A stretch of 20,000 nt of DNA, from the IMG/VR virus record IMGVR_UViG_3300037840_000255; one strand, written 5' to 3'. This document shows positions 1,721 through 20,000 of the stretch, piece by piece. The first letter of the stretch is position 1; each line of letters starts with the position of its first letter. A program made the position numbers and the translations under genes. Source of the DNA: an uncultured virus (IMG/VR IMGVR_UViG_3300037840_000255) (taxonomy: Duplodnaviria > Heunggongvirae > Uroviricota > Caudoviricetes). The notes beneath the pieces were generated by a model. It did not search any database. It was not told the DNA's origin and worked only from the letters and a program-made list of their open reading frames with translations.

Positions 1721-2031
1721 CCCTCGCCCGCCTCAGCCTCAAATCCGCATATCGTGTTGCGCGCAATAGCGTGTCCCGCCGCAGAGCCGGCGCAAGCTGG
1801 AGCGTTACCACGCGCGACCCCATCACCGGCAACCGCCGCTCGGCTTCTTGCGCAGCGAAGCACGTCCGCTTTGTCGTCAGCCGTGCCCGCATCTGGGCCG
1901 CTCTTCTCGCCCTTGGCGTCAATGAACACGAGGCCGAACGCGCATCTCTCACCCTCGCCTCTATGGGCGACTGGCGCACTGTCGTCAGCACTTACATCAG
2001 ACAAACCGATGGAGCACGTCATGCCCGCTGA
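1717..2031 (+). CDS. Hypothetical basic protein (104 aa)
   Basis: ATGA coupling with the upstream ORF; its end overlaps the start of the AAA gene. Confidence 0.6.
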   Translation: MTLARLSLKSAYRVARNSVSRRRAGASWSVTTRDPITGNRRSASCAAKHVRFVVSRARIWAALLALGVNEHEAERASLTLASMGDWRTVVSTYIRQTDGARHAR

Positions 2032-3598
2032 AACCCTCACACGCAGCCAAGCTAAGGCGGCAGATGTTGCTGCGCTCTGGCGCGCACGCGCCCCGCTTCT
2101 CTGGATCGACAGCCGAGAGGAGGCGCGCGTCGAGCGATATCTTGCCGCCGCCGCCAAGTCGATCAAGTACGGTGTTATCACCTGGGATGTGGCCGTCGGT
2201 TTTGCCGACGCGACAGGCGAGCCTCTCAAAGAACCGGAAGGTTCGCGCGATCCTGGCGTCGCTCTCGACTTCATCCGCGAACGCGCCAAGGGCGGCGACC
2301 GCACTGTGTGGGTCCTCCGTGACTTCCCCACATGGCTGACAGGACCGGCCGGCGCGACCACGCTGCGCCAACTGCGCAACCTCGCGCGCTCGCTTCCTGA
2401 CGCCGATCTGGCCAGCACGCAGGCCGTGGTGGTTCTCTCTCCGACGGCCGAAGTCCCGGCCGAACTGGCAGACCACGCAACGGTCATTGAGTGGCCACTT
2501 CCCGACCGCGCTGAGATCGGCGAGGTCCTCGACGAGGCTGTCAAGACTGGCGGCGATAAGGTCGAGCCGCTCAACGGCAAGCGCGAGGCGGCTATTGATG
2601 CCGCTGTCGGCTTGACTGAAGGCGAGGCGGTTGCGTGCTTCAATCGCTCGCTGGTGCAACTGCGCAAGATCGATCCGGCTATCGTCGCCGCCGAGAAGCG
2701 CCGCGTCATCAGCCGCGAGAAAGTCTTGGAATGGTATGACCCGCTCCCCGGTGGGCTCGACGCGGTGGGCGGCCTCGATAACCTGAAGACTTGGCTGCGC
2801 ACGCGCGCTTCGGCTTATTCGCCGGCAGCCCGCGCCTACGGGCTTCCTTCGCCGAAGGGCGTCCTCATTGTCGGTATCCCCGGCACGGGCAAGTCGCTCA
2901 CCGCCAAGGCGGCCAGCACGACCTGGGGCATCCCGCTGATCCGCATGGACCTGGGAGCGTTGAAGTCGAAATTTGTCGGCGACAGCGAGGCCAACATCCG
3001 CCGCGCCTTCAAAGTGATCGAGGCCGTGGGCCGTTGCGTGGTCTGGCTCGACGAGATCGAGAAGGCGCTGCAGGGGTCTACATCTGGATCATCCGACGGG
3101 GGCACGTCATCCGATCAGCTCGGCGCGATCCTGTCATGGATGCAAGAGCGTTCGAGCGAGGCCTTCGTGATCGCCACAGCGAATGACGTGTCAGCACTCC
3201 CCCCCGAACTGCTGCGCAAAGGCCGCTTCGACGAATTGTTTTTCGTCGACCTGCCGAACCGCAGTGAGCGCATCCAGATCACCATGGCGACGCTCAAGAT
3301 GTTCGGCCGCAAGTCGCATGTTGTCGATGTTGCCGCCGTTGCGGACGCGACCACGGACTTCACCGGCGCAGAGATCGCGGCCATCGTCCCCGAGGCGATG
3401 TTCACTGCCTTCAACGATGGTGCCCGCGAGATCAGCACGGACGATCTGTTGCAAGCCGCCCGTGATGTTGTGCCGCTCAGCAAAACCGCAGCGCCTAAGA
3501 TCAAAGCGCTGCGGGACTGGGCAAACGGCAAAGCCCGCTCCGCGAGCGTTGCCGAAGAGAAAGCCCCGGAGCGCAAGCTGCGCGCCCTGGATATTTGA
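2021..3598 (+). CDS. AAA+ ATPase, Ycf46/SpoVK-like (degenerate N-terminal AAA-like domain + active C-terminal AAA domain)
   Basis: ATG 2021 after GGAG; Walker A GIPGTGKS; pore loop SKFVGDSE; Walker B VVWLDEIEK; SRH ATANDVSALPPELLRKGRFDELFFVDLP; FTGAEI lid motif. Confidence 0.93.
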   Translation: MPAETLTRSQAKAADVAALWRARAPLLWIDSREEARVERYLAAAAKSIKYGVITWDVAVGFADATGEPLKEPEGSRDPGVALDFIRERAKGGDRTVWVLRDFPTWLTGPAGATTLRQLRNLARSLPDADLASTQAVVVLSPTAEVPAELADHATVIEWPLPDRAEIGEVLDEAVKTGGDKVEPLNGKREAAIDAAVGLTEGEAVACFNRSLVQLRKIDPAIVAAEKRRVISREKVLEWYDPLPGGLDAVGGLDNLKTWLRTRASAYSPAARAYGLPSPKGVLIVGIPGTGKSLTAKAASTTWGIPLIRMDLGALKSKFVGDSEANIRRAFKVIEAVGRCVVWLDEIEKALQGSTSGSSDGGTSSDQLGAILSWMQERSSEAFVIATANDVSALPPELLRKGRFDELFFVDLPNRSERIQITMATLKMFGRKSHVVDVAAVADATTDFTGAEIAAIVPEAMFTAFNDGAREISTDDLLQAARDVVPLSKTAAPKIKALRDWANGKARSASVAEEKAPERKLRALDI

Positions 3599-3623
3599 AC
3601 CCTGAACCGAGAAAGGCTACGCC

Positions 3624-4361
3624 ATGTTGACCACAAGCACCCTCCGCCCCGGCTATCTGGTTTCTCTGAAAACCTCAGTCCGTGGCAACGTCCACTATGC
3701 CCGCACCGACCTGGGCAGCGAACAGGATGGCAGCGCAGCCATCGACAAGTGGACGACTAAGCGCACCATCGATGATCCAGTCGAACATGAGCGCGCCGGC
3801 AAGGCGCGGTCCAAGGCGGCCTCGGTCATCCGCTCAGTCTGCAAACAATCGGCCTTCGGCTTGCTCTGCCCAGAAGTGGACAGCGATAAGCTGGAAGCCG
3901 CCACGGCCGAGGCCCGCAAGATCATCGACGACTTCAACGACACAGCGCAACTGTCCCGCATTTCGATCTATGTGCTGACGGGGCGCGTCATGCCTGACGA
4001 CGTTGAGGCCGTGCGGGCGATCAACTCGGAGATTCGGGAGTTGATGGCGGAAATGTCTGGTGGCATCGAGAACGGCGACGTGGCCGCGATCCGCGAGGCG
4101 GCATCCAAAGTGAAAGGCATCGGTGAGATGCTCAGCACCGACGCCCAGACCAAAGTCGAGATGGCGGTGAAGGCCGCCCGCGAGACGGCGACGAAGATCA
4201 GAAAGGCTACCGACGACGGCGAGACTACGCTGAAGGTGGATACCTCTGCCGTCCGTCGCATCAACGAACTGCGCACCGCGTTTCTTGACCTGGATGATGC
4301 AGCAACCGTGGCCGCGCCCCGCAAGGTCGCGACCGCCCAGCTTGACCTCGCAGCGGAGTAA
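3624..4361 (+). CDS. Helical partner protein of the AAA ATPase (DUF3150-like)
   Basis: 245 aa directly after the AAA gene. 'SAFGLLCP' followed by long helices matches my recollection of DUF3150-like partners of these ATPases; the family call is tentative. Confidence 0.5.
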   Translation: MLTTSTLRPGYLVSLKTSVRGNVHYARTDLGSEQDGSAAIDKWTTKRTIDDPVEHERAGKARSKAASVIRSVCKQSAFGLLCPEVDSDKLEAATAEARKIIDDFNDTAQLSRISIYVLTGRVMPDDVEAVRAINSEIRELMAEMSGGIENGDVAAIREAASKVKGIGEMLSTDAQTKVEMAVKAARETATKIRKATDDGETTLKVDTSAVRRINELRTAFLDLDDAATVAAPRKVATAQLDLAAE

Positions 4362-5476: not shown

Positions 5477-5751
5477 CCGAGCATCCCGACTACACCTTCA
5501 CCAAAGCCGATTGGTCGCTGATCCCTGACTACATGATCGGTGGCCTTCGGCGCTGGATCGAGAACGGCATAGAGCCTGGAGACTTTCTCTGTGCCGTTCT
5601 GAAGAATGATCTGAAAGAGGCGTGCGCCCGCGCCGATGATAACAACCAGCGACGCCTCTTCCAGTACATAAAGTTCCTTTACTGCTATGCGCCGTCAGGA
5701 TGTTTCGGTTCGGAGGAGAAGTTTGATCATTGGAAGCATGCTTATCCGGTT

Positions 5752-6822
5752 TCAACATGCAGGCGCTAAAGGTTGATCGTCATGAGGGCTGACCTTCGCG
5801 TGCTGCCAGTCCCCGCTATAGAGGCCGTCATAGGTCGGGCTTTCGCCATTCGCACCGATGCCGAGCAACGAGCGGAAAGCGTTGAAGGGGTAGAAGCGGC
5901 GGTTAAAGCGGAACGCAAACTCATTGAGGTAGGCTTGCAGATGCTTCGGCTCGACGCGGCCGTGATGCGTCCCTTGAAGCCACGCTTTGAGATTGCTGAA
6001 AACAAGGTGGACGATGGGCAGGTATTCTTCGGCAACCTGCGGGTCGCCGCCCTCGACTACCGGCAGATGGGCATAGCCTCGCGTCCCGAGCGAATTGTAG
6101 GACGGCGCGGCATCGGTCACGACCATCGCGCCAAGGGCTACGGCGGCCTCGACAAAACCGCACAGGGCCTTCTCAGTGCGATCCGGCACAATCTCAATGC
6201 GGAGACGCCCGGCGTATCGGCCGCCGCGCCGCATGGGCTTATCGCCCTTCTTAGCGGGTCGTGTACGGACTTCGACGGCGGCAATGACCAGCGTCTTTTC
6301 ATCGGCGTGAACGCCTTTGCCTTTTCCCCGCGTCTCGCCGCCGACGTAGGTTTCGTCAATCTCGACGTGATCGCCACGGGCCAGATTGCTGCCAATGGGA
6401 TCGCGGTTCGGTCGCACCATGCCAGCGCGGAGCTTGTGCAGGGTTTGAAAGGCCGTCTCGTACCGTTTGAGGCCAAGCTGCCGCTGCAACTGTGTGGCCG
6501 AAATGCCGGGGGTAAGGCTGGAAACGAGATAGGCCGCCCAAAACCACGTTGTAAGCGGCGTATGGGTACCTTCCATGACGGTATTGACCGTGATGGACGT
6601 TTGCTTGCGGCAGGCAGAACAAGCCAGCACACGCGGCCGACTCGCCAGCCTGATCGGTTCGCCCTTTTCGTGGCAGTGCGGGCACTCGAAACCCTTGGGC
6701 CACTTTGCGCCTTCAAGCCAGCGGGCGCAGGCCACGTCATCCGGGAACAGCCGTTGAAAATCCCGGAGCGATTTGGGGAACGGCAGATGTTCCCATTGGT
6801 GAATGTCGTGAAGGGCGGCCAC
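5752..6822 (-). CDS. tnp: IS1595-family (ISXO2-like) transposase
   Basis: N-terminal Zn ribbon CPHC...CSAC; HTH region ISATQLQRQLG...YETAFQTLHKLR; catalytic VEIDETYVGG, VVTDAAPSY, LPIVHLVFSNLK (D-D-H-K); C-terminal HLQAYLNEFAFRFNRR. Confidence 0.96.
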   Translation of the reverse strand: MAALHDIHQWEHLPFPKSLRDFQRLFPDDVACARWLEGAKWPKGFECPHCHEKGEPIRLASRPRVLACSACRKQTSITVNTVMEGTHTPLTTWFWAAYLVSSLTPGISATQLQRQLGLKRYETAFQTLHKLRAGMVRPNRDPIGSNLARGDHVEIDETYVGGETRGKGKGVHADEKTLVIAAVEVRTRPAKKGDKPMRRGGRYAGRLRIEIVPDRTEKALCGFVEAAVALGAMVVTDAAPSYNSLGTRGYAHLPVVEGGDPQVAEEYLPIVHLVFSNLKAWLQGTHHGRVEPKHLQAYLNEFAFRFNRRFYPFNAFRSLLGIGANGESPTYDGLYSGDWQHAKVSPHDDQPLAPAC

Positions 6823-7482
6823 TTAACCCTCCCGGCCATGGAAGTCTTGCGCCGCGTCCCATCGGCTGCCTGTCTCGCCGCCGTTACTGACGCTACATAC
6901 GATGCTCGCCCATTCCGGCGCGGGGACGGTCATCTGCGCAGTGACGTATTGGCCGTCGCAATGCGTCGCCCTAACGGCCCCATCGTCAAGGCGCTTGAAA
7001 TACCAGCCATCTTTCCAGTGAAACCCGACCGTGGCTTCGTTTATGCGGGCCAACCGTTCGCGCTCGTAGCGCGCGTCATCGTCCTGTTTTCGCGTTTTTG
7101 TGCGTTCCGTATATTCAGTCCGCGCCGCTTCAAGAGCCGACTGACATTCGTACCGCCCGCACCAATTTTTATTGAGGCACATAGTGCCCGTGCTGCCGGT
7201 GGGGTTCTGGCAGTTGTCGCAAAGTGGACTATCCAGTTCTTTTTTGGCGATGGCGGCCAAAAACGCCGCCTTAGAGGGCCATCGCTTTTCCCAAACAACG
7301 CGCTGGCGCTCACCTTTAACGGCAACATCGCTTTCGGAAACGCTGTCAAAACGGAACAAACGGCGGTTGTCATAGACGCCCTTAATCCAGTGGCGTCCGG
7401 GACCGCCGTATCCCTCGATAAAGCCGCCCCTCATGTCGATCTTCGGCTTAAAGCCTTTGTTAACGGTCATTTTTGCCTCCAT
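6823..7482 (-). CDS. IS passenger gene, unknown function (219 aa, Cys cluster)
   Basis: Lies inside the IRs, co-oriented and in frame with tnp (TAA directly followed by GTG). Contains CDNC...C...C...C and a C-terminal GFHWKDGWYFKRLDDGAVR...EWASIVCSVS segment. Confidence 0.75.
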   Translation of the reverse strand: MEAKMTVNKGFKPKIDMRGGFIEGYGGPGRHWIKGVYDNRRLFRFDSVSESDVAVKGERQRVVWEKRWPSKAAFLAAIAKKELDSPLCDNCQNPTGSTGTMCLNKNWCGRYECQSALEAARTEYTERTKTRKQDDDARYERERLARINEATVGFHWKDGWYFKRLDDGAVRATHCDGQYVTAQMTVPAPEWASIVCSVSNGGETGSRWDAAQDFHGREG

Positions 7483-7616
7483 TGTTGCAGCCCTTTATCT
7501 AGCACAAGTGGGTGCATGTGTCAACCGGATAAGCATGATTGGAAGGCGCACAAGGGAATGGATTGGCCCGACATCTATGATGGCGACGGCCCTGCGCGCG
7601 TCGTGACGGTGGCGTC

Positions 7617-13409: not shown

Positions 13410-13627
13410 AGCGCCCCCGACCATTCAGGTGGACAATGTTCGGCGAGGACCTCCGCGTCCTGCGAAACCTCCACGGCAAGAGCCTGAGGGACTTCGAGAC
13501 CGTCACCGGCGTCAACTACACCACGCTGGGCAGGGCGGAGCGAGGTAGGCCCATCGAGGTGCCGGACTTCCTCCATCTCTGCTGGATGTTCTCGCTGCGG
13601 CCGTTCGCGTACTTGAAGGGGAAGTAA
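13406..13627 (+). CDS. XRE-family HTH transcriptional regulator
   Basis: FGEDLRVLRNLHGKSLRDFETVTGVNYTTLGRAERGR. Confidence 0.85.
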   Translation: MKRPRPFRWTMFGEDLRVLRNLHGKSLRDFETVTGVNYTTLGRAERGRPIEVPDFLHLCWMFSLRPFAYLKGK

Positions 13628-13629
13628 AG

Positions 13630-13845
13630 ATGAAGCGTTGGGAATATTTCAGCTTCACGCCATCGAGAGACAGTCATCCAAGGGATATAATAAACCTCCT
13701 CACAGACTATGGTAAGGGCGGTTGGGAGCTAGTCATTGTCAATGAAGGTATTTTCTATCTGAAAAGACTTCTGCCCCCAGTCGACAGGATGAGGGAAAAT
13801 GACGGAACGAGAAACGACGGAGGGCCAAGTGCAGCCCCTCTATGA
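13630..13845 (+). CDS. DUF4177-like small protein
   Basis: MKRWEY...LTDYGKGGWELV...FYLKR. Confidence 0.75.
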   Translation: MKRWEYFSFTPSRDSHPRDIINLLTDYGKGGWELVIVNEGIFYLKRLLPPVDRMRENDGTRNDGGPSAAPL

Positions 13846-14416
13846 CCCCGAAGCCGCGCGATGGTTCTCCGGCCGATACTCGGCCCCGACCGTCCGAGAG
13901 TTGCTGGCCAAGATGCCGGAGGGCACGGTGATCGCCGACTATTATCCGGGCGGCTACGCGGCGGTTCGCGACGGAGTGCCCATCGGCAGGGCCGAGCTGC
14001 GGACCCAGTACAACAAGCCGAAGTTTCATTTGCGGCCGCTCCCCGCTACGGCAACGGACCAGACACCCGTTGCCGGCGATAGCGGGTGCCGAGAGATGGT
14101 CGCAAGGGAACCTGTCCGTCGACCCCGAGCGGCCGGGACAGGACGGGCTCCCGCCGGCACGAGGGGCAAATATAAGCGCCGTCGAGCCTCGCCCGATCTC
14201 CCCAGGCTCCTGGCCGCCGCCGTGGCCAAGAGCAAGACGAGCTGGGGCGACGAGGAGATGGCGACGCTGAGGGAATTGGCCGCGGCAGGCTATACCGCGT
14301 ACCAGATTGGCGAGGCCGTGGGTCGCAGCCGCAACGCCGTCATCGGCCAGTGCCACCGGCGTGACATCGAGCTGAAGACGCCGCCGTTCTTTCGCAGGGG
14401 AGCATATAAAAAATGA
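13799..14416 (+). CDS. Protein with C-terminal GcrA-like HTH domain
   Basis: SWGDEEMATLRELAAAGYTAYQIGEAVGRSRNAVIGQCHRRDIEL closely matches the GcrA N-terminal domain (WTDER...GLSASQIA..LG.SRNAVIGKVHRLGL). Confidence 0.8.
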   Translation: MTERETTEGQVQPLYDPEAARWFSGRYSAPTVRELLAKMPEGTVIADYYPGGYAAVRDGVPIGRAELRTQYNKPKFHLRPLPATATDQTPVAGDSGCREMVAREPVRRPRAAGTGRAPAGTRGKYKRRRASPDLPRLLAAAVAKSKTSWGDEEMATLRELAAAGYTAYQIGEAVGRSRNAVIGQCHRRDIELKTPPFFRRGAYKK

Positions 14417-14518
14417 CCAAGCGCTGGTCCCGGTTCGACAGGCAAGACAGACTGTTGCGGGCGTGCCGTCGACTCCTGGTCGAGATGAATGCCAGCGATA
14501 CGACAGGATAACCGGCAG

Positions 14519-14734
14519 ATGACTTATGTCACGGAACAGACCGGCGCCGAGCTTCGTAATCACATGAGGCGCCTCATCGTCATGCCGGGATGGCATGATC
14601 CGTTGTGTGATCGCTTATGGAGTGAGGTCCAAAAACAGGATGCCGAGATTGCACGTCTGCGAGCGGCGCTGACTGAATGTGCGTCAAACTTTATCAGCCA
14701 GCCCTGCACGGTACCGGGGAAGCAGCCGTCATGA
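14519..14734 (+). CDS. Hypothetical phage protein, probably with a chimeric 3' end
   Basis: DAEIARLRAALTEC motif; the 3' end runs into the 42-bp repeat. Confidence 0.6.
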   Translation: MTYVTEQTGAELRNHMRRLIVMPGWHDPLCDRLWSEVQKQDAEIARLRAALTECASNFISQPCTVPGKQPS

Positions 14735-14758
14735 CCCATATAAAAGCCGGCTGTCAGG
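14717..14758 (+). repeat. 42-bp direct repeat, copy 1
   Basis: GGGAAGCAGCCGTCATGACCCATATAAAAGCCGGCTGTCAGG; 39/42 identical to 18614-18655. Confidence 0.95.
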
Positions 14759-14919
14759 TTAACAGGAGTTTGGGAGACCGCTGGAATGCCTACCAATTCG
14801 AGCAATCGACCGCATGGGAAACAAGCGAGGCGGCTTAACGGCTGCTGCCTGCGTGGCGAGCAGGGTCACCCGCCAGTATCAACAAGTTAACCGCCAACTT
14901 CAAACCAACGGAGACTAAA

Positions 14920-15219
14920 ATGGCTTTCTCTACGGGATCATCAGGACAACAGGCAAATACAGTTCGAGGGCCTTCCGTCGTCGGGTCAATCGAAGATTTT
15001 GACGCGGTGCTGCAACGTGGCGATGACTACGCAAACCGGCTGCAAAAAATCTCTGACCGCATCTGCGGCTCGGGCCCGGCAGAGTTGCTACAGCCTAGCC
15101 ATCAAGGCGGTGCCATCCCTCATTCCGTCATCGCCTCAATCAACGAGCGGCGGTCACGGCTGGTCGAGTTGTTGGATCGCGTCGAGCGGTCAATCGGCCA
15201 GCTTGAAAACGTGCTGTAG
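14920..15219 (+). CDS. Hypothetical helical phage protein (99 aa)
   Basis: GGAG SD; followed by a 10-bp hairpin at 15219-15243. Confidence 0.75.
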   Translation: MAFSTGSSGQQANTVRGPSVVGSIEDFDAVLQRGDDYANRLQKISDRICGSGPAELLQPSHQGGAIPHSVIASINERRSRLVELLDRVERSIGQLENVL

Positions 15220-15271
15220 GCGACTGTTACGGAAACAGTCGTCAACTTCATAGGTTTAGGAAGCGGTCAAA

Positions 15272-15502
15272 ATGTCAAGTCAGACTGGACAAATCGCCCG
15301 ATCTTCAAACCGGGATACGGCGAAACTCATGGCGCTAAAGGAAAGCGGCATCAGCGGAACGAGCGAGGCCGTCTGCTTTGCGAAGGGCTGGGAGGCCGCG
15401 ATGGACTGCGCTGCTGAAAGTATCGACGCCCTTTTGTCAGCGGTTCATGAGCGGGAACTTGGCCGCACCATCGCCTACGCTATTTCGACTTTGAAAGAGT
15501 AA
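15272..15502 (+). CDS. Hypothetical phage protein
   Basis: ORF in the coupled array; GWEAAMDCAA motif. Confidence 0.6.
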   Translation: MSSQTGQIARSSNRDTAKLMALKESGISGTSEAVCFAKGWEAAMDCAAESIDALLSAVHERELGRTIAYAISTLKE

Positions 15503-15520
15503 TGACAGATTAATCGCCAG

Positions 15521-16270
15521 ATGACCGAGCCTCGGATTATATGTCGCTACTCTTGTGGGGCCGCTTCGGCGGTAGCCACCAAGATGACATTGCGTAAATA
15601 CGGTCACGGTCGCGTCGAGATTGTCTACGACCCCGGTTCCGAGCATCCCGATAATGTGCGGTTTCGAGCGGATTGTGAGCGATGGTTCGGCAAGCCGGTG
15701 ACGGTCCTCAAGTCCGACAAGTACGCCGACACTTGGGCGGTCTGGGAAGGCGAGCGGTTCATTGCCTCACAGCATGGGGCGCCATGTACCGGAATCCTCA
15801 AACGTGAGCCGTGGCACGCGGTGGAGCGCCCGAGCGACATCCTAGTGCTTGGCTACACGTGCGAGGAACGGGACCGGGCGGACAGTCTCCGCAAGGCGAA
15901 TTTTGAGCGCATGATCGAGACGCCGCTTATCGAGGCTGGACTATCCAAGGCCGACTGCCTCGCCATGATTGAGCGCGCCGGCATCGACCTGCCTGCGATG
16001 TACCATCTAGGATTCCAGAATAACAATTGCATCGGCTGTCCCAAGGGCGGCCGGGGCTATTGGAACATGATCCGCAAGCACTTCCCCGAAAAGTTCGATC
16101 GCATGGCGCTTTTACAGCGCGAGCTGGGGGTGGCCTTTTGGCTAGAGCCGGATGGCACAGAGCTATTCTTAGACCAGCTAGACCCGAAACGCGGGGTACA
16201 GCACGACGAGCCCAATATCGACTGCTCGGTGATGTGCCATATCGCGGAGAAGGATTTGGCCGATGTCTGA
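15521..16270 (+). CDS. PAPS-reductase-like / adenine nucleotide alpha-hydrolase (PP-loop) phage enzyme
   Basis: ICRYSCGAASAVA PP-loop variant, EHPDNVRF, GAPCTGILKR, LGYTCEE..RA, PLIE..LSKADC, MYHLGFQNNNCIGCPKGG.GYW, CSVMC. Confidence 0.85.
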   Translation: MTEPRIICRYSCGAASAVATKMTLRKYGHGRVEIVYDPGSEHPDNVRFRADCERWFGKPVTVLKSDKYADTWAVWEGERFIASQHGAPCTGILKREPWHAVERPSDILVLGYTCEERDRADSLRKANFERMIETPLIEAGLSKADCLAMIERAGIDLPAMYHLGFQNNNCIGCPKGGRGYWNMIRKHFPEKFDRMALLQRELGVAFWLEPDGTELFLDQLDPKRGVQHDEPNIDCSVMCHIAEKDLADV

Positions 16271-16451
16271 CGCCGTACGGGAGTTTGAGAACAGCATTTG
16301 CGGAACCTGCCCGCGCTGTGGCGCCGTCTGCGATTACGGCTGCCGCTGCCCGAACCGCGACCCGGAGTTTCCATTGGTCAAGTACGATGATCCGCGCGCA
16401 GTAGAGGCGCGCAAACGACGGCTAACTTCTGCAATGCAGGAAAAATCATGA
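16263..16451 (+). CDS. Small Cys-rich protein
   Basis: CGTCPRCGAVCDYGCRCP. Confidence 0.6.
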   Translation: MSDAVREFENSICGTCPRCGAVCDYGCRCPNRDPEFPLVKYDDPRAVEARKRRLTSAMQEKS

Positions 16452-16777
16452 GCGAGAGCGAGCACACGCCGGGACCGTGGATCATAAACGATGAAAACCC
16501 ACGGCGTTTAAAAGTTGAATGTTCGGCCTACGAGGACGAAACACCCGGCATCTGCGGTGCTCATTCTAAGGAATGGCCTTTAACTCGCGACGACGCGCGC
16601 CTTATTTCTAAGGCGCCAGAATTACTGATGGCGCTCATCAAGCTGTCTAACGAGGCTTCCGGCTGGTTCGGCTATGAGCCCGAAATGCGACAGATAGCGG
16701 GCAATACGAATTTCGCGGTCCTGAAACAGCGCGTCGATGAGGCCAGGGCCATCATCGCTGAAGCGGTCGGCAGTTAA
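16448..16777 (+). CDS. HTPGPW-family phage protein
   Basis: HTPGPW...DARLISKAPELL.AL...ARAIIAEA. Confidence 0.85.
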   Translation: MSESEHTPGPWIINDENPRRLKVECSAYEDETPGICGAHSKEWPLTRDDARLISKAPELLMALIKLSNEASGWFGYEPEMRQIAGNTNFAVLKQRVDEARAIIAEAVGS

Positions 16778-16793
16778 CTGAGGTAATTCACCC

Positions 16794-17003
16794 ATGACCC
16801 ACGAACGTACATTAGCTGGTCGGGCACTCCTAGAGCAACGCGACGCCGTGAGAAAATGGATTGAGCAGAATCGAGACAGCGCGGAGTCATCACAGATTGA
16901 AGCTGCCGAATTGCTGTCCTGCGAACTTTACTATGCGGCGGCTAATGGTGACACGAGTCGTCTGTTGCGTCGTTACTCGCCAACTGTACGAGGGGAACCA
17001 TGA
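16794..17003 (+). CDS. Hypothetical protein
   Basis: GAGG SD; ATGA coupling to the next gene. Confidence 0.6.
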   Translation: MTHERTLAGRALLEQRDAVRKWIEQNRDSAESSQIEAAELLSCELYYAAANGDTSRLLRRYSPTVRGEP

Positions 17004-17446
17004 CCGTCAAGGTGCCGCCCTTCACGCTCGCCGACGCCGATCCGTCGATGATGAACGCGGTTCTTCGGCGCATCGGCCGACCCTGGCGCAAGATCGGCGC
17101 TACGTGGCCCGACTACGGGCTTGTGCGCGTGCAGTGGGAAGGTCCGTGGACGAAGCCCGGTGTCCCGAAGCGCGCCAGATACCGCTACACGCATTGGATA
17201 GGAGCTGCGGAGCGTTCCGGCGAGACCGGCATCTTCGACATCAACTGCATCAATAATGGCACCGGCTGGGTGTCTCTGAAGGATTGGTACAATCTTGTCG
17301 TGCCGTTCATCATCAAACAATATCCGCGCGCTACTGGCGGATGGCACATCACACACGCAATCGAAATCGAAAAAGCCGGGAAGATTGCGCGCACTGTGCT
17401 TAGCTTCCCAGGCGATCCCGATCTTGAACTGACAGCAGCAGAGTAA
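17000..17446 (+). CDS. Hypothetical protein, possibly a degenerate papain/C39-like fold
   Basis: THWIG...IFDIN His-Asp pair is present; no N-terminal Cys. Confidence 0.55.
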   Translation: MTVKVPPFTLADADPSMMNAVLRRIGRPWRKIGATWPDYGLVRVQWEGPWTKPGVPKRARYRYTHWIGAAERSGETGIFDINCINNGTGWVSLKDWYNLVVPFIIKQYPRATGGWHITHAIEIEKAGKIARTVLSFPGDPDLELTAAE

Positions 17447-17457
17447 CACGGGGTTAA
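17444..17457 (+). repeat. Junction 14-mer TAACACGGGGTTAA, copy 1
   Basis: Starts at the stop codon of the upstream gene; identical to 18160-18173. Confidence 0.9.
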
Positions 17458-17462
17458 TCGCC

Positions 17463-17708
17463 ATGAACTGTAAGCACTGCAAAGGGACTGGGCGCATTGA
17501 GCGGACTGGCGACGGGTCGCTCTACAGCCAAATTGCCAACCAGACAGACCGTTGCCCAACCTGCCGAGGGTCAGGAACCCTCAAGCCTGACTTCCCAACA
17601 CTGCCCGGTGGCAGGGTTGATATTGACGCTATGAATAGGGCTAATTGCCCCGACGTGCTTCATGGAGGTCGTGAAGAAGATTGCCAAGACAACGATGAGG
17701 GGGCCTGA
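17463..17708 (+). CDS. DnaJ-type zinc finger protein
   Basis: CKHCKGTG...CPTCRGSG (two CxxCxGxG repeats). Confidence 0.75.
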   Translation: MNCKHCKGTGRIERTGDGSLYSQIANQTDRCPTCRGSGTLKPDFPTLPGGRVDIDAMNRANCPDVLHGGREEDCQDNDEGA

Positions 17709-17713
17709 CGAGT

Positions 17714-17920
17714 ATGATGCTCGATTGCATTGATACATCCATGAATTACCCCTACCGCGCAAAATGCAGCTGGTGCGGGAAGGAATGGTATTCCGTAGTA
17801 CCCAAGGGGCATCAACACATCGTTGCGTGTGGCGCCTGCGGATCGGGCGATGTCGAAATCTACGGTTTGAGAGAAAACGTCGGATATGACCCAACTTCAT
17901 CCGACGATGTAGACCACTAA
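17714..17920 (+). CDS. Small zinc-ribbon protein
   Basis: CSWCG...CGACG. Confidence 0.6.
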   Translation: MMLDCIDTSMNYPYRAKCSWCGKEWYSVVPKGHQHIVACGACGSGDVEIYGLRENVGYDPTSSDDVDH

Positions 17921-17934
17921 CCAGGGGCGTTAAC

Positions 17935-18162
17935 ATGGCAAAATCAGCACTCGATAGCAGTCTTGATGAACTAGAGCGCGTGAACGCCATTAGGACGCGC
18001 ATTCATCTTGCGGCTAAGGAGTTGATCGAGTCCAAGCAATCGACCTATCGCGCCAGGAATGGCCGCGACATGGGAATAGAGGACGAGTCTGGGGAGAAAT
18101 GCTGGATCGTTCCGTTCGATAAAATGGATGCACTGATCGCCGCGTTGGAAGCTGACGGCTAA
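17935..18162 (+). CDS. Hypothetical phage protein
   Basis: TYRARNGRDMGIEDESGEKCWIVP motif. Confidence 0.7.
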   Translation: MAKSALDSSLDELERVNAIRTRIHLAAKELIESKQSTYRARNGRDMGIEDESGEKCWIVPFDKMDALIAALEADG

Positions 18163-18173
18163 CACGGGGTTAA
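18160..18173 (+). repeat. Junction 14-mer TAACACGGGGTTAA, copy 2
   Basis: Identical to 17444-17457 and again starts at a stop codon. Confidence 0.9.
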
Positions 18174-18178
18174 CGGCA

Positions 18179-18451
18179 ATGCCGCAAAAGATCGACATTC
18201 CCTTAGATCAAGCAATTGCCCTCGTCCGCGCTTGCCAAAAGCTGAATTGCGACACGGCTGAGCAGCTATTCGATATGGTCAATGAGCGGTGCGGGGAGAT
18301 TAAGACGCTACGCGAGGCCCTAGAGCCATTTGCCGACATTCCCCTCGCAAGGGACACTGACCGGAACGCGCCGAACAGAATTGAAGCTGTCGATATGGCA
18401 ATCACCCCGAAGCAGGTTCGCGTGGCGCGATCAGCCATGCGACACACTTAA
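18179..18451 (+). CDS. Hypothetical phage protein
   Basis: EIKTLREALEPFA...VRVARSAM motif. Confidence 0.7.
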   Translation: MPQKIDIPLDQAIALVRACQKLNCDTAEQLFDMVNERCGEIKTLREALEPFADIPLARDTDRNAPNRIEAVDMAITPKQVRVARSAMRHT

Positions 18452-18470
18452 CGACAGACAGGACGTTAAC

Positions 18471-18662
18471 ATGCCAGAACACAGATGGTCAGGCTGGCCC
18501 GGCGCATGGTGTCTCGATTGTGGATGTAGCGATCCGCGCGAGGATGCCTTAGCAGACGGCGGCGATCCAATGGACTTGAAATTCGATGTGGCGGCGATGG
18601 AATGTAGCGAGCCGGGAAGCGGCCGTCACGACCCATATAAAAGCCGGCCGTCAGGACGATAG
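18471..18662 (+). CDS. Small Cys/His phage protein
   Basis: MPEHRWSGWPGAWCLDCG...C..PGSGRHDPY; AGGA SD. Confidence 0.7.
   Translation: MPEHRWSGWPGAWCLDCGCSDPREDALADGGDPMDLKFDVAAMECSEPGSGRHDPYKSRPSGR
18614..18655 (+). repeat. 42-bp direct repeat, copy 2
   Basis: GGGAAGCGGCCGTCACGACCCATATAAAAGCCGGCCGTCAGG. Confidence 0.95.
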
Positions 18663-18851
18663 TGGATGAATGAGAGCGGACACAATTTCAGTTGCGGGGA
18701 GGACGGCCAATCGTGCTGCCGCTGCGGTTGCCGTTTTTGGACGATCCTCAACGAGCGAACGGAAGCGTCAAAGCAACAATGCCCAGGTCGCGGCCAACGG
18801 CTCATATGGCCGTCACAGAATGACGACTAACCGCCGATCAGAGGACAAAAG

Positions 18852-19034
18852 ATGACCCCGGAACAAGTCGCAACCGCTATTGAACTTGCACTTTACCGCG
18901 TCGCTGACCGGCTTAAAAACATGAGCGCCCACAACAAGCCAACGGGGTTAAGTGAATTGGCAACCGCGCTGCGAGAGGTCGGATATGAACTAGCCTCCAT
19001 TCGCGCGGGCCATGAGAAAGCAAAAGCCGATTGA
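18852..19034 (+). CDS. Hypothetical helical protein (60 aa)
   Basis: GAGGA SD. Confidence 0.6.
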   Translation: MTPEQVATAIELALYRVADRLKNMSAHNKPTGLSELATALREVGYELASIRAGHEKAKAD

Positions 19035-19058
19035 CCCGTCCAAAGCAGGGAGATTGAA

Positions 19059-19304
19059 ATGGCCGATGACGATGGTTGGGATAACAGCGTAGGCCGCGCA
19101 GGTGGGCCGCGCCTGAAACAATGGCGCCATAAAAAACGTGGCACCGTTTACACGGAAATAGGTCGCGCAAAGTTGCAAGCTTCCGACACCGGCGGTATGG
19201 GCGACCATCATCCCATGGTGGTTTACCGTGGCGAAGATGGTCAGCTTTGGGTGCGCCCAGAAGATGAATTTGATGACGGCCGGTTTGAGTCGGTTAATCG
19301 GTAG
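19059..19304 (+). CDS. DUF1653-like protein
   Basis: WRHKKRGTVY..IG.A...MVVYRGEDGQLWVRPEDEF..GRFE. Confidence 0.8.
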   Translation: MADDDGWDNSVGRAGGPRLKQWRHKKRGTVYTEIGRAKLQASDTGGMGDHHPMVVYRGEDGQLWVRPEDEFDDGRFESVNR

Positions 19305-19315
19305 CGAACCGCCAG

Positions 19316-19498
19316 ATGCCGACCAAAGAAGAAACCGAACTGGCCGCCCGAGCTATCCACAATCATTGGATGCTCACCGCACGGGCCGTCAAGAATGGCG
19401 AACTGTCTCCCCTCGAATGGAGCGAGATTGCGGAGGGTCCCGCTAAGGAGCATTTCCGCACGCTGGCAAAAGCCGCGCTGGAAATGAAACCGCGATAA
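19316..19498 (+). CDS. Hypothetical phage protein
   Basis: ELAARAIH...W......KEHFRTLAKAALE motif. Confidence 0.65.
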   Translation: MPTKEETELAARAIHNHWMLTARAVKNGELSPLEWSEIAEGPAKEHFRTLAKAALEMKPR

Positions 19499-19524
19499 CA
19501 TCACATTAACTTGGAGAATCCCAT

Positions 19525-19728
19525 ATGCTTGTTGTTCTCAAAAAGACATACACTATCAGCGTCACGATCCAGGAGGGAAACGACGAGTTCTGGGAAAGCC
19601 TACGCGGCAAATCCGGCGCCGATGAGGTCGTGAACGAGGTCAAGAAGGCGCTCGCCGGTCGCGGTTTCCAAGAAGGCTACGGGACACACGTTCGGCTCGA
19701 ACGATTTGAAGAACGAGCGCCGGAGTAG
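19525..19728 (+). CDS. Hypothetical protein
   Basis: GGAG SD; YTISVTIQEGNDEFWE. Confidence 0.7.
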   Translation: MLVVLKKTYTISVTIQEGNDEFWESLRGKSGADEVVNEVKKALAGRGFQEGYGTHVRLERFEERAPE

Positions 19729-19742
19729 CCAGTTAAACCCCC

Positions 19743-20000
19743 ATGAGCGGGCAACGCTACAGCCAAGCCGTTCAAAAAACCTCTCGGCATTTTACGCCGT
19801 GGGAGGCGCTCCCGGCGCGCTATCTTCAATCATGCTGCGGCTGCGGCCTGGTTCACGAGTGGCACTTTAGCTGGCGCAAAGTCGAAGGTAAGGTTTTGCT
19901 CGGCAAGCGTCTGAGACAACACGTTGGCGAGACCAAAAAAGAACGCAAGCGGATGACAAAGAGGCGTTGGGGGGGGGGGCGGGCCCCCGCCCGCCGGCGC
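19743..20000 (+). CDS. Phage protein with CCxCGLVH motif, partial (no stop in window)
   Basis: Manual translation: MSGQRYSQAVQKTSRHFTPWEALPARYLQSCCGCGLVHEWHFSWRKV...KRRWGGGG. Confidence 0.6.
   Translation, partial: MSGQRYSQAVQKTSRHFTPWEALPARYLQSCCGCGLVHEWHFSWRKVEGKVLLGKRLRQHVGETKKERKRMTKRRWGGGRAPARRR

What the first reader, a model, noticed from the sequence alone, without database searches (positions are those of the whole stretch)
14509..19738. Accessory mini-gene array joined by TAA-N7-TTAA(C) junctions: candidate phage gene-cassette system (or dense CtrA-box array)
Seen: from about 14.5 kb, many gene boundaries change from ATGA/GTGA overlaps to a short motif that begins exactly at the upstream stop codon. 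Exact N7 spacing: gTAA-tgacaga-TTAAtcgccagATG (15499-15513), gTAA-cacgggg-TTAAtcgccATG (17443-17457), cTAA-cacgggg-TTAACggcaATG (18159-18174), aTAA-catcaca-TTAAC (19495-19510). Variants: cTAA-N9-TTAACATG (17917-17937), TTAAC-N13-TTAACATG (18448-18473), GTTAAC (14758, 14886, 16773), TAACCGGCAGATG (14509), CTAACCGCC (18827), GTTAATCGG...AACCGCCAGATG (19293-19318), GTTAAAC (19732). Several downstream genes have weak or no SD and share the (T)AA[TC]CG[CG]CA(G)ATG context. Established: TAA-N6-8-TTA is the geometry of tyrosine-recombinase core sites (dif, loxP); integron attC sites also place the stop codon in ...TAAC and end in GTTRRRY; TTAA-N7-TTAAC is the CtrA consensus. Inference: these may be minimal crossover sites or scars through which single-gene cassettes are gained and shuffled. 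No recombinase is visible in this window.
Basis: partly seen in the sequence, partly recalled or inferred. Interest (0 to 1): 0.8.

Follow-up and report, generated by a model that had tools for sequence, protein, structure and literature searches.

The report
Address-coded gene slots in soil phages
Unrelated soil phages share a fixed, ordered row of more than 20 short DNA 'addresses' with interchangeable small genes between them, which looks like an undescribed natural plug-and-socket system for swapping accessory genes.

Summary
The junction motifs are real, but they are not one repeated motif. Each is a degenerate arm, a 7-base core and an inverted arm, and the core differs from slot to slot. 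The window holds cores 1-14 of a series of 21 (up to 24) that recurs in the same order in 27 other phage or metagenome contigs: 2028 concordant versus 12 discordant site pairs in 23 hold-out arrays. The genes between cores are almost all different (553 proteins, 462 families). Two arrays never shared both genes flanking a site (0 of 3613 pairs; 29 shared one side). Cores are nearly invariant while arms vary, as expected when a tyrosine recombinase needs matching overlap sequences. A lambda-Int-fold recombinase under purifying selection, mostly lacking its N-terminal domain, sits in slot 6 of 8 of 28 related records, with stubs in 13. The window has none. CtrA boxes and attC hairpins fail their tests. 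Best reading: natural recombinase-mediated cassette exchange between phages; closest known analogue is Acinetobacter dif modules. Catalysis is inferred, not shown. Ten literature searches and five look-ups of earlier scan notes found no description.

The parts
14491..14517 (+). Slot-1 site (left boundary of the array), core CGACAGG at 14501-14507; left arm weak
   Evidence: first core in 14 arrays; no recurring site found upstream
14519..14734 (+). Cassette gene, 71 aa, unknown; its 3' end (14717-14758) is a 93% copy of the 3' end of gene 18471-18662
   Evidence: repeat D3
14749..14768 (+). Hybrid junction: slot-9-type left part joined through a 4-base CAGG overlap to a slot-1-type right arm (inferred off-address event)
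   Evidence: sequence read directly
14870..14896 (+). Slot-2 site, core CAACAAG at 14880-14886
14920..15219 (+). Cassette gene, 99 aa, unknown
15218..15244 (+).
15272..15502 (+). Cassette gene, 76 aa, unknown; stop codon forms the end of the next left arm
15493..15519 (+). Slot-4 site, core TGACAGA at 15503-15509
15521..16451 (+). Slot-4 cargo: PAPS-reductase-like gene (15521-16270) and a 62-aa ORF (16263-16451) that reads through the slot-5 site
   Evidence: phrog_424 E 5.8e-47
16416..16442 (+).
   Evidence: contigs of soil runs X1 and X2 have loose ends at 16421 or 16425 and at 16458, so they fit this site and little else
16448..16777 (+). Cassette gene, 109 aa (phrog_1273); a 53% homologue lies in slot 4 of L115
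16768..16794 (+). Slot-6 site, core CTGAGGT at 16778-16784
16794..17003 (+). 69-aa gene in slot 6, where sister arrays carry a promoter, regulators and the recombinase or its stubs; reads through the slot-7 site
16956..16982 (+).
   Evidence: same core and right arm in L001 and L036
17000..17446 (+). Slot-7 cassette gene, 148 aa; homologues (78% nucleotide identity) occupy the same slot in L001/L141 and L036/L149, each followed by a different gene
17437..17463 (+). Slot-8 site, core CACGGGG at 17447-17453
17463..18162 (+). Three small genes (81, 68, 75 aa) between two copies of the slot-8 core; includes an irregular site at 17911-17937
18153..18179 (+). Second slot-8 site, core CACGGGG at 18163-18169
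18179..18451 (+). Cassette gene, 90 aa, unknown
18449..18475 (+). Slot-9 site, core CAGGACG at 18459-18465
18471..18830 (+). Slot-9 cargo: 63-aa and 54-aa genes separated by a second, weak-armed CAGGACG core at 18652-18658
18821..18847 (+). Slot-10 site, core CCGCCGA at 18831-18837
18852..19034 (+). Cassette gene, 60 aa; a 47% homologue lies in slot 15 of L143
19025..19051 (+).
19059..19304 (+). Cassette gene, 81 aa (phrog_12083; weak DUF1653 match below the Pfam cut-off)
19288..19314 (+). Slot-12 site with a one-base variant core (TCGGTAG for TCAGTAG) at 19298-19304
19316..19498 (+). Cassette gene, 60 aa, unknown
19489..19515 (+). Slot-13 site, core CATCACA at 19499-19505
19525..19728 (+). 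Cassette gene, 67 aa, unknown
19727..19753 (+). Slot-14 site, core ACCCCCA at 19737-19743; the array probably continues past the window (slots 15-21 or more in relatives)
   Evidence: a contig of run X4 has a different left arm at 19734

Best explanation
An address-coded cassette-exchange array. Each junction is a simple tyrosine-recombinase site: two degenerate inverted arms of about 8-10 bases (left like SCGACTAA, right like TTAGTCGS or AAAGCAGG; the left arm usually ends in the upstream stop codon, the right arm runs into the ribosome-binding site) around a 7-base strand-exchange core. About 21-24 different cores, all in one orientation, keep a fixed order. SHOWN: geometry, fixed order, near-invariant cores with variable arms, loss of linkage at sites, and a conserved recombinase in slot 6. 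INFERRED: strand exchange needs matching cores, so site n of one phage recombines only with site n of another. One crossover joins two co-infecting (or prophage and infecting) genomes and a second, at another matching address, swaps the genes between. Unlike cores within one array protect it from deleting itself. Rare mismatched events move a gene to another slot or duplicate an address. The likeliest catalyst is the slot-6 recombinase, a derivative of tRNA-targeting integrases that has lost its N-terminal domain; phages without it, this one included, would use it in trans.
For: Spacer length: an arm-only, leave-one-array-out scan gave 250 hits at 7 nt against 13-32 at 4, 5, 6, 8, 9 or 10 nt; 236 of 250 fell in 23 recurring 7-mers, three of them not among the seeds (11, 9 and 8 arrays). 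Order: 2366 concordant and 0 discordant pairs for single-copy strong sites; with repeats, 2548 vs 17 in 28 arrays and 2028 vs 12 in 23 hold-out arrays. Core versus arms: 382 exact cores and 8 one-mismatch cores among 433 internal slot positions; same-slot arm identity only 0.52 and 0.57, against 0.47 and 0.48 between slots. Linkage: of 3613 same-core pairs, 17 share only the upstream gene, 12 only the downstream gene, 0 both; 109 alignments inside arrays cross 0 of 295 site junctions but cross non-site junctions 11 times (235 junctions). In 17 close pairs the arm next to the shared gene is kept (7-10 of 10 bases) and identity stops 0-7 bases beyond the core. Slot fidelity: 73 of 93 protein pairs at 80% identity or more are in the same slot. 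The slot-8 site is about single-copy per genome (23 of 28 records). Enzyme: fold closest to lambda Int 75-356 (TM 0.62-0.65; model pLDDT 93); R147, K199, R276, H299, Y308 invariant in 116 sequences; dN/dS 0.06-0.17 over 21 pairs; no tRNA-type att site next to it. Its full-length relatives sit beside tRNA genes (17 of 27 loci), and their end repeats stop 0-3 bases past the 7-nt anticodon loop in 12 of 12 elements. Mechanistic precedent: identical 6-8 bp cores between inverted arms, and spacer-incompatible sites enabling cassette exchange (PMC4111918); spacer-matched cointegrate exchange of dif modules (PMC13141974).
Against: No biochemical or direct in vivo evidence. The intact recombinase is in only 8 of 28 records (7 of 21 near-complete ones); 13 have stubs, 7 nothing, and the window has none, so action in trans must be assumed. 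The att-site flanks of the full-length relatives do not score on the array's arm matrix (-10.4 to +0.3 on the phage side), so nothing ties this enzyme family to these arms; those relatives are only 26-41% identical. One array carries the full-length 440-aa form in slot 6. No joint that skips between the window's duplicated cores was listed in four soil assemblies. Upstream-sharing pairs often stay identical 6-7 bases into the right arm, and the first three right-arm bases are slot-biased, so the crossover point is not pinned to the core edge. 49 of 194 homologue pairs are in different slots. The one-sided pairs are not independent, and no near-identical phage pair differing by one slot was found (duplicates were 100% identical).
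Confidence: 0.6

Rival explanations
1. Same address-coded mechanism, but the catalyst is a host or other tyrosine recombinase. The slot-6 enzyme is then a passenger or a lysogeny integrase.
For: Most complete array phages lack an intact recombinase. The array is shared across 19 flank clusters of 28 arrays (short flanks over-split), which a host factor would explain. The family's known att flanks do not match the arms.
Against: The recombinase or its stubs occupy the same slot in 21 of 28 records, under purifying selection and without an adjacent att site. All 16 loci (14 distinct phages) from a protein-driven scan carry arrays, including the 3 contigs not seen before. XerCD sites have 6-bp spacers (PMC13141974); 6-nt spacing is at background here.
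Confidence: 0.15
2. The junctions are short homology linkers used by phage single-strand annealing proteins or other homology-driven recombination (the 'boundary sequence' idea for lambdoid phages, recalled). Order is conserved by descent and by the need for collinear crossovers.
For: The window encodes ERF and YqaJ. Identity often runs several bases into the right arm. Recombinase-stub breakpoints inside slot 6 scatter over about 20 bases or more, so imprecise exchange does occur in these arrays.
Against: Homology linkers should be conserved along their length; here only the central 7 bases are fixed, and arms are barely more alike within a slot than between slots. Inverted arm symmetry and strict 7-nt spacing are unexplained. 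ERF is in only 4 of 28 records (other annealing families were not searched).
Confidence: 0.15
3. The sites are operators for CtrA or a phage repressor (like mycobacteriophage stoperators, recalled); they regulate the operon and only incidentally mark gene borders.
For: Alphaproteobacterial context (GcrA-like gene). CtrA binds TTAA-N7-TTAA in some alphaproteobacterial phages (PMC9437464). Five of 394 sites are perfect matches, and the window's four N7 sites are one mismatch away.
Against: 357 of 394 sites have two or more mismatches. A dimeric regulator gives no reason for slot-specific, invariant spacers in fixed order, nor for the loss of linkage. No + strand sigma-70-like promoter was found in 14300-20000. 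Incidental CtrA binding at slot 8 is not excluded.
Confidence: 0.05
4. Decayed integron cassette array (attC remnants) in a phage.
For: Stop codon inside the left arm, start codon after the right arm, one small gene per unit (median 303 bases); phages do carry attC arrays (PMC9892861, abstract).
Against: Arms within a site are no more complementary than shuffled pairs (3.27 vs 3.31 of 8), so there is no hairpin. Fixed order and slot-specific cores contradict integron shuffling. The only family-level tyrosine recombinase besides the slot-6 enzyme is one 423-aa-frame integrase in 1 of 28 records.
Confidence: 0.03

Closest known systems
Acinetobacter pdif sites and dif modules (XerC/XerD; PMC13141974, passages read)
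   Same: Accessory genes bounded by tyrosine-recombinase sites with variable spacers; exchange follows spacer identity; single modules are replaced through a cointegrate and a second crossover.
   Different: Here: phages, not plasmids; 7-nt rather than 6-nt spacers; all sites in one orientation, not alternating C/D and D/C; degenerate arms; a fixed, ordered set of 21-24 addresses shared by unrelated backbones; a candidate element-encoded recombinase.
Engineered recombinase-mediated cassette exchange with heterospecific lox/FRT spacers (PMC4111918, passages and one section read)
   Same: Incompatible spacers on one molecule prevent deletion and allow double-crossover swaps with a matching donor.
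   Different: A laboratory design with two or three spacers; this would be a natural version with more than 20.
Integrons and attC clusters, including those in phages (PMC9892861, abstract read)
   Same: Co-oriented, promoter-less single-gene units; stop codon in one arm, start after the other.
   Different: No hairpin site, no IntI seen, order fixed instead of shuffled, sites differ by address.
tRNA-targeting lambda-family integrases of Rhizobiales elements (e.g. the terminal gene of Bradyrhizobium phage ppBjS10J-1, 42% identical)
   Same: Protein family, catalytic residues and fold; end repeats that stop at the 7-nt anticodon loop.
   Different: The array form mostly lacks the N-terminal ~80 residues, has no att site beside it and sits inside the gene array; that phage has no array.
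CtrA-bound regions of alphaproteobacterial phages (PMC9437464, passages read)
   Same: N7 dyad geometry; TTAA half-sites at some slots.
   Different: Those cluster in large intergenic gaps or terminal repeats; here 91% of sites depart from the consensus by two or more bases and the spacer is the conserved part.
Boundary or linker sequences of lambdoid phages; R64 shufflon (both recalled, not read)
   Same: Short conserved sequences at gene borders that favour modular exchange; a shufflon uses many sites and one tyrosine recombinase.
   Different: Linkers work by overall homology and have no arm-core-arm form; shufflons invert segments between sites sharing one core.

Membership tests
Tyrosine-recombinase simple core site | Inverted arms around a 6-8 bp non-palindromic core | tested here: met
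   Left and reverse-complemented right arm profiles correlate 0.83-1.0 at five of the eight positions 3-10 from the outer end; 7-nt spacing 250 vs 13-32; no core is within one mismatch of any core's reverse complement
Tyrosine-recombinase simple core site | Core identical between recombining partners; crossover at the core | tested here: met
   382 exact and 8 one-mismatch cores; homology ends 0-7 bases beyond the core in 17 of 17 close pairs; comparative evidence only
Tyrosine-recombinase simple core site | Cleavage and strand exchange by a cognate enzyme | not testable with these tools
   Needs an assay
Tyrosine recombinase (slot-6 protein of sister arrays) | Catalytic R-K-(H)xxR-H-Y set and Int fold | tested here: met
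   R147, K199, R276, H299, Y308 invariant in 116 sequences; N272 stands in the usual first His position; fold match to lambda Int; below the Pfam cut-off
Acinetobacter dif modules (pdif, XerCD) | 6-bp spacer between XerC and XerD arms | tested here: not met
   6-nt spacing 18 hits, at background
Acinetobacter dif modules (pdif, XerCD) | Modules bounded by inversely oriented sites, C and D types alternating | tested here: not met
   All cores on one strand; chain 13 on + versus 5 on - in the window
Acinetobacter dif modules (pdif, XerCD) | Exchange governed by spacer identity | tested here: inconclusive
   Fits slot fidelity and fixed order; not assayed
Integron / attC array | attC folds as a hairpin with paired R and L boxes | tested here: not met
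   Arm complementarity equals shuffles, 792 of 1000 at or above observed; sites are about 27 bases long
Integron / attC array | IntI integrase and attI | tested here: inconclusive
   PF00589 search of 28 records found only the slot-6 enzyme and one other integrase; no IntI-specific model was run on whole records
Integron / attC array | Cassette order is shuffled | tested here: not met
   2548 concordant vs 17 discordant site pairs
CtrA regulon site | TTAA-N7-TTAA dyad with free spacer | tested here: not met
   37 of 394 within one mismatch; spacers fixed per slot
CtrA regulon site | Binding by CtrA~P, linked promoter | not testable with these tools
   No + strand promoter-like match in the region; binding not assayed
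Prophage integrase module (tRNA-targeting) | N-terminal arm-binding domain and att site next to the gene | tested here: not met
   At most 16 open codons upstream in 7 intact genes, next gene abuts the stop; tRNA T-arm motif in 1 of 8 intact-gene records, 25 kb away; one array has the 440-aa form

The most novel reading that the evidence does not exclude
A community-wide gene-exchange standard among soil phages: one domesticated, arm-domain-less integrase acts on 21-24 mutually orthogonal 7-bp addresses, so any co-infecting phage carrying the same row can swap any block of slots in a plug-and-socket way, while phages that have replaced the enzyme with a conserved 67-aa gene use it as a public good.
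Probability: 0.45. Interest if true: 0.95.

Novelty: categorically new. Interest (0 to 1): 0.88.

Why it matters
Whether phage mosaicism arises from random illegitimate joins or from dedicated exchange points at gene borders is an old open question (recalled). This array gives more than 20 defined, testable exchange points, with complete loss of linkage across them, shared by phages with different backbones. It would be the first natural case known to me of ordered cassette exchange built on many orthogonal overlap sequences. It marks out a pool of hundreds of small accessory genes (410 of 462 families seen once) as purpose-built mobile units. A single recombinase with 20 or more naturally selected orthogonal sites would also be useful for ordered multi-gene assembly.

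Tried and rejected
No whole genome is held for the window, so the rest of its contig was not searched. PAPS-reductase relatives (23 loci) carry no array: best core chains 3-7, at background. The GTDB scan with the slot-11 pattern gave 29 hits, none with an array (chains 1-7), so no host is named. INPHARED DNA search found only two short PAPS-reductase matches. Bradyrhizobium phage ppBjS10J-1 has the related integrase but no array. Pfam, NCBIfam and PDB sequence search did not recognise the 332-aa protein; a first fold from 6 sequences failed (pLDDT 34). Rows dropped before counts: 41 of 71 candidate loci as duplicates (7 pairs checked were 100% identical), then L124 and L139 as weak chains; L146 was used only for the recombinase and extra slots. 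I hoped duplicates would show single-slot swaps; they did not. My first registers for two cores were off by 1-3 bases and were corrected by the arm-only scan. A possible self-site over the recombinase's catalytic tyrosine codon (score 9.9) was not accepted, because stub breakpoints scatter. Matching the relatives' att flanks to the array arms failed. Assemblies of four soil runs listed no joint between duplicated cores; contigs drop rare forms, so this is no evidence of absence. Rfam: no match in 13500-20000. The 67-aa protein had no usable Atlas hit and was not scanned against family libraries. Literature searches listed nothing describing this system; subscription papers are not covered and no supplements were read. 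Earlier-finding look-ups were empty; 72 and 111 gave only other systems.

Full report
Context. The window is phage DNA of alphaproteobacterial type: ERF and YqaJ recombination genes, a NinB-like gene, a GcrA-like gene, an AAA ATPase and an IS1595 element. It is held by soil metagenome runs (three hold over half of its words, one may be its source). No whole genome is held. From 14.5 kb on, small genes follow one another on the + strand.

Observation. Four exact TAA-N7-TTAA sites lie at the stated places; 0.31 are expected and no shuffle of 200 reached four. All listed variants are in the sequence.

First lead. A scan of viral contigs with the repeated slot-8 14-mer gave 87 loci. Most were chance matches, but about 15 of similar GC content had it between a stop and a start codon. 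Two of them share the window's gene 17000-17446 up to the motif and then diverge, each into a different gene. Reading all junctions in five arrays showed several junction types that recur in the same order with different genes between.

Anatomy. Further DNA-pattern and protein scans gave 71 candidate loci, 30 after removing duplicates and 28 after dropping two weak ones, the window included. An arm-only matrix, trained without the array under test, found 250 sites at 7-nt spacing and 13-32 at each other spacing from 4 to 10. Of the 250, 236 carried one of 23 recurring 7-mers, including three cores not among the seeds (the matrix register came from 7-nt seeds, so the new cores are the non-circular part). 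The order is CGACAGG, CAACAAG, TACGGAA, TGACAGA, CTTCTGC, CTGAGGT, TGCGTCG, CACGGGG, CAGGACG, CCGCCGA, CCCGTCC, TCAGTAG, CATCACA, ACCCCCA, CGATGAC, CGCCGAG, TCCCTGA, TGAGCAG, TAAGCGA, TGGCCAA, CAAGAGA, with three more beyond in 6, 3 and 2 arrays. Single-copy strong sites gave 2366 concordant and 0 discordant pairs. Counting repeated sites gave 2548 versus 17, and 2028 versus 12 in the 23 arrays not used to list the cores. Control loci reached chains of 1-7 cores against 5-16 (mostly 10-16) for arrays. The window carries slots 1-14, with slot 8 duplicated, a weak second slot 9 and a one-base variant at slot 12.

Core versus arms. Among 433 internal slot positions, 382 have the exact core, 8 a one-mismatch core with good arms, and 43 are absent (exact cores helped define sites, so this is an upper estimate of conservation). 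Arms of the same slot are 52% and 57% identical, against 47% and 48% between slots. The 21 cores differ from each other at two or more positions. The left arm ends in TAA or TGA at 248 of 394 sites, and a called gene ends exactly there at 168. The first three right-arm bases are slot-biased, which I cannot explain.

Exchange. Adjacent-slot segments have a median length of 303 bases (325 segments). Their 553 proteins fall in 462 families, 410 seen once. Of 3613 pairs of same-core sites, 17 share only the upstream gene, 12 only the downstream gene and none both; 17 were ambiguous on one side (pairs are not all independent). Of 109 alignments of 100 bases or more inside arrays, none crosses a site-type gene junction while non-site junctions are crossed 11 times; one crosses a weakly supported core. 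In 17 close pairs the arm beside the shared gene travels with it and identity ends 0-5 bases before or 1-7 bases after the core. Homologues usually keep their slot: 73 of 93 pairs at 80% identity or more, 145 of 194 overall. In one clear slot change the gene end and left arm are identical and the sequence switches exactly at the core (L200 versus L149). Contigs from the soil runs have loose ends at the slot-5, 7, 11 and 14 sites, and two bridge slot 5 to slot 6 or 7 with unknown sequence between (laid at 85% likeness, so these are probably other phages). By shared flanking proteins the 28 arrays fall into 19 groups (over-split by short flanks).

Candidate enzyme. Slot 6 of sister arrays often starts with a promoter-like sequence and small regulators, followed by a 332-351-aa protein. 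It matches phrog_1 integrase weakly and has relatives of about 410 aa with PF00589. It keeps R147, K199, R276, H299 and Y308 in all 116 aligned sequences, folds like lambda Int 75-356, and has dN/dS of 0.06-0.17. It lacks the roughly 80 N-terminal residues of its relatives, which by analogy with lambda Int I take to be the arm-binding domain. It is intact in 8 of 28 records, reduced to stubs of about 20-45 residues in 13 and absent in 7; only one record has another PF00589 protein. All 16 loci of the protein-driven scan have arrays, though only three contigs were new. Full-length relatives occur in 22 of 401 genomes sampled from the order of a Neorhizobium MAG, mostly beside tRNA genes (17 of 27 loci scanned, of 28). 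In 12 of 12 elements with both ends found, the repeat stops 0-3 bases past the anticodon loop, which fits a 7-bp overlap for the family. Against the link, their flanks do not resemble the array arms, one array has the full-length form, and the window has neither gene nor stubs.

Mechanism. Tyrosine recombinases bind inverted repeats around a 6-8 bp core that must be identical between partners, and spacer-incompatible sites allow cassette exchange while preventing deletion (PMC4111918; section on tyrosine integrases and passages read). The array has this layout more than 20 times over. I infer that two phage genomes in one cell cross over at one matching address and resolve at another, swapping the block between, as proposed for dif modules (PMC13141974; passages read). 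Duplicated addresses (12 same-core segments, some probably chance matches) and lost runs of slots would be rare off-address events. Geometry, order and breakpoints are shown; catalysis, enzyme identity and action in trans are inferred.

Rivals. A host recombinase could do the same job (0.15). Homology-driven swapping does not explain fixed cores within drifting, symmetric arms, and ERF is in 4 of 28 records (0.15). CtrA (PMC9437464; passages read) fits 37 of 394 sites (0.05). attC remnants (PMC9892861; abstract read) fail on hairpin and order (0.03).

Novelty and verdict. Ten searches of the open literature listed nothing like this; subscription journals and supplements were not seen. Earlier notes of this scan held no match by sequence or by words and only other junction systems. 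It works like dif modules and engineered cassette exchange but fails membership of dif modules, integrons and CtrA sites on tested features. I rate it categorically new as a system, with the mechanism still to be assayed; interest 0.88.

Noticed in passing
L153:10205-10405 and homologues in L154, L152, L156, L197, L131, L133, L115, L151, L071: A conserved 66-69-aa gene sits in or near slot 6 of 10 arrays that have lost the recombinase middle, and was not found in the loci of the 8 intact-recombinase phages or in the window. Function unknown; no usable Atlas hit.
   Followed up: partly
slot 6 of L152, L153, L154, L156, L133, L151, L115, L131, L197, L071: N- and/or C-terminal recombinase stubs of about 20-33 residues are kept at high identity with their own start codons; breakpoints differ between phages. 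An arm-7-arm-like sequence overlies the catalytic tyrosine codon.
   Followed up: partly
window 14717-14758 and 18614-18655: 42-base direct repeat (93%): the 3' end of a slot-9 gene recurs in slot 1 in another reading frame; an inverted repeat (14702-14729 / 14838-14865) spans it. Contigs of runs X1, X2 and X4 match without differences, so it is not a sequencing error.
   Followed up: partly
window 5734-7540: IS1595-family element with 28-base terminal inverted repeats, carrying a 219-aa passenger gene and interrupting a phage gene; related IS copies occur in L032 and L066.
   Followed up: no
window 1976-4361: AAA ATPase (phrog_8638) followed by phrog_11021, an uncharacterised gene pair.
   Followed up: no
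window 13799-14416: Phage gene with a C-terminal match to the N-terminal part of GcrA, just upstream of the array.
   Followed up: no
L115, L120, L122, L133, L135, L137, L138, L140 (opposite strand, beyond the array): Several array phages encode a secreted ~250-280-aa protein that looks like an outer-membrane beta-barrel of Bradyrhizobium-type hosts (judged from recall, not tested).
   Followed up: no
L197 (contig has a second slot-8 and slot-9 pair after slot 20), L131 (slots 4-5 and 11 repeated), L200 (slots 14-15 repeated): Block duplications and out-of-order copies account for most of the 17 discordant site pairs.
   Followed up: partly
G361 C1 690-775 kb: An integrase-bearing 42.5-kb element appears twice in tandem at a tRNA-Arg gene.
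   Followed up: no
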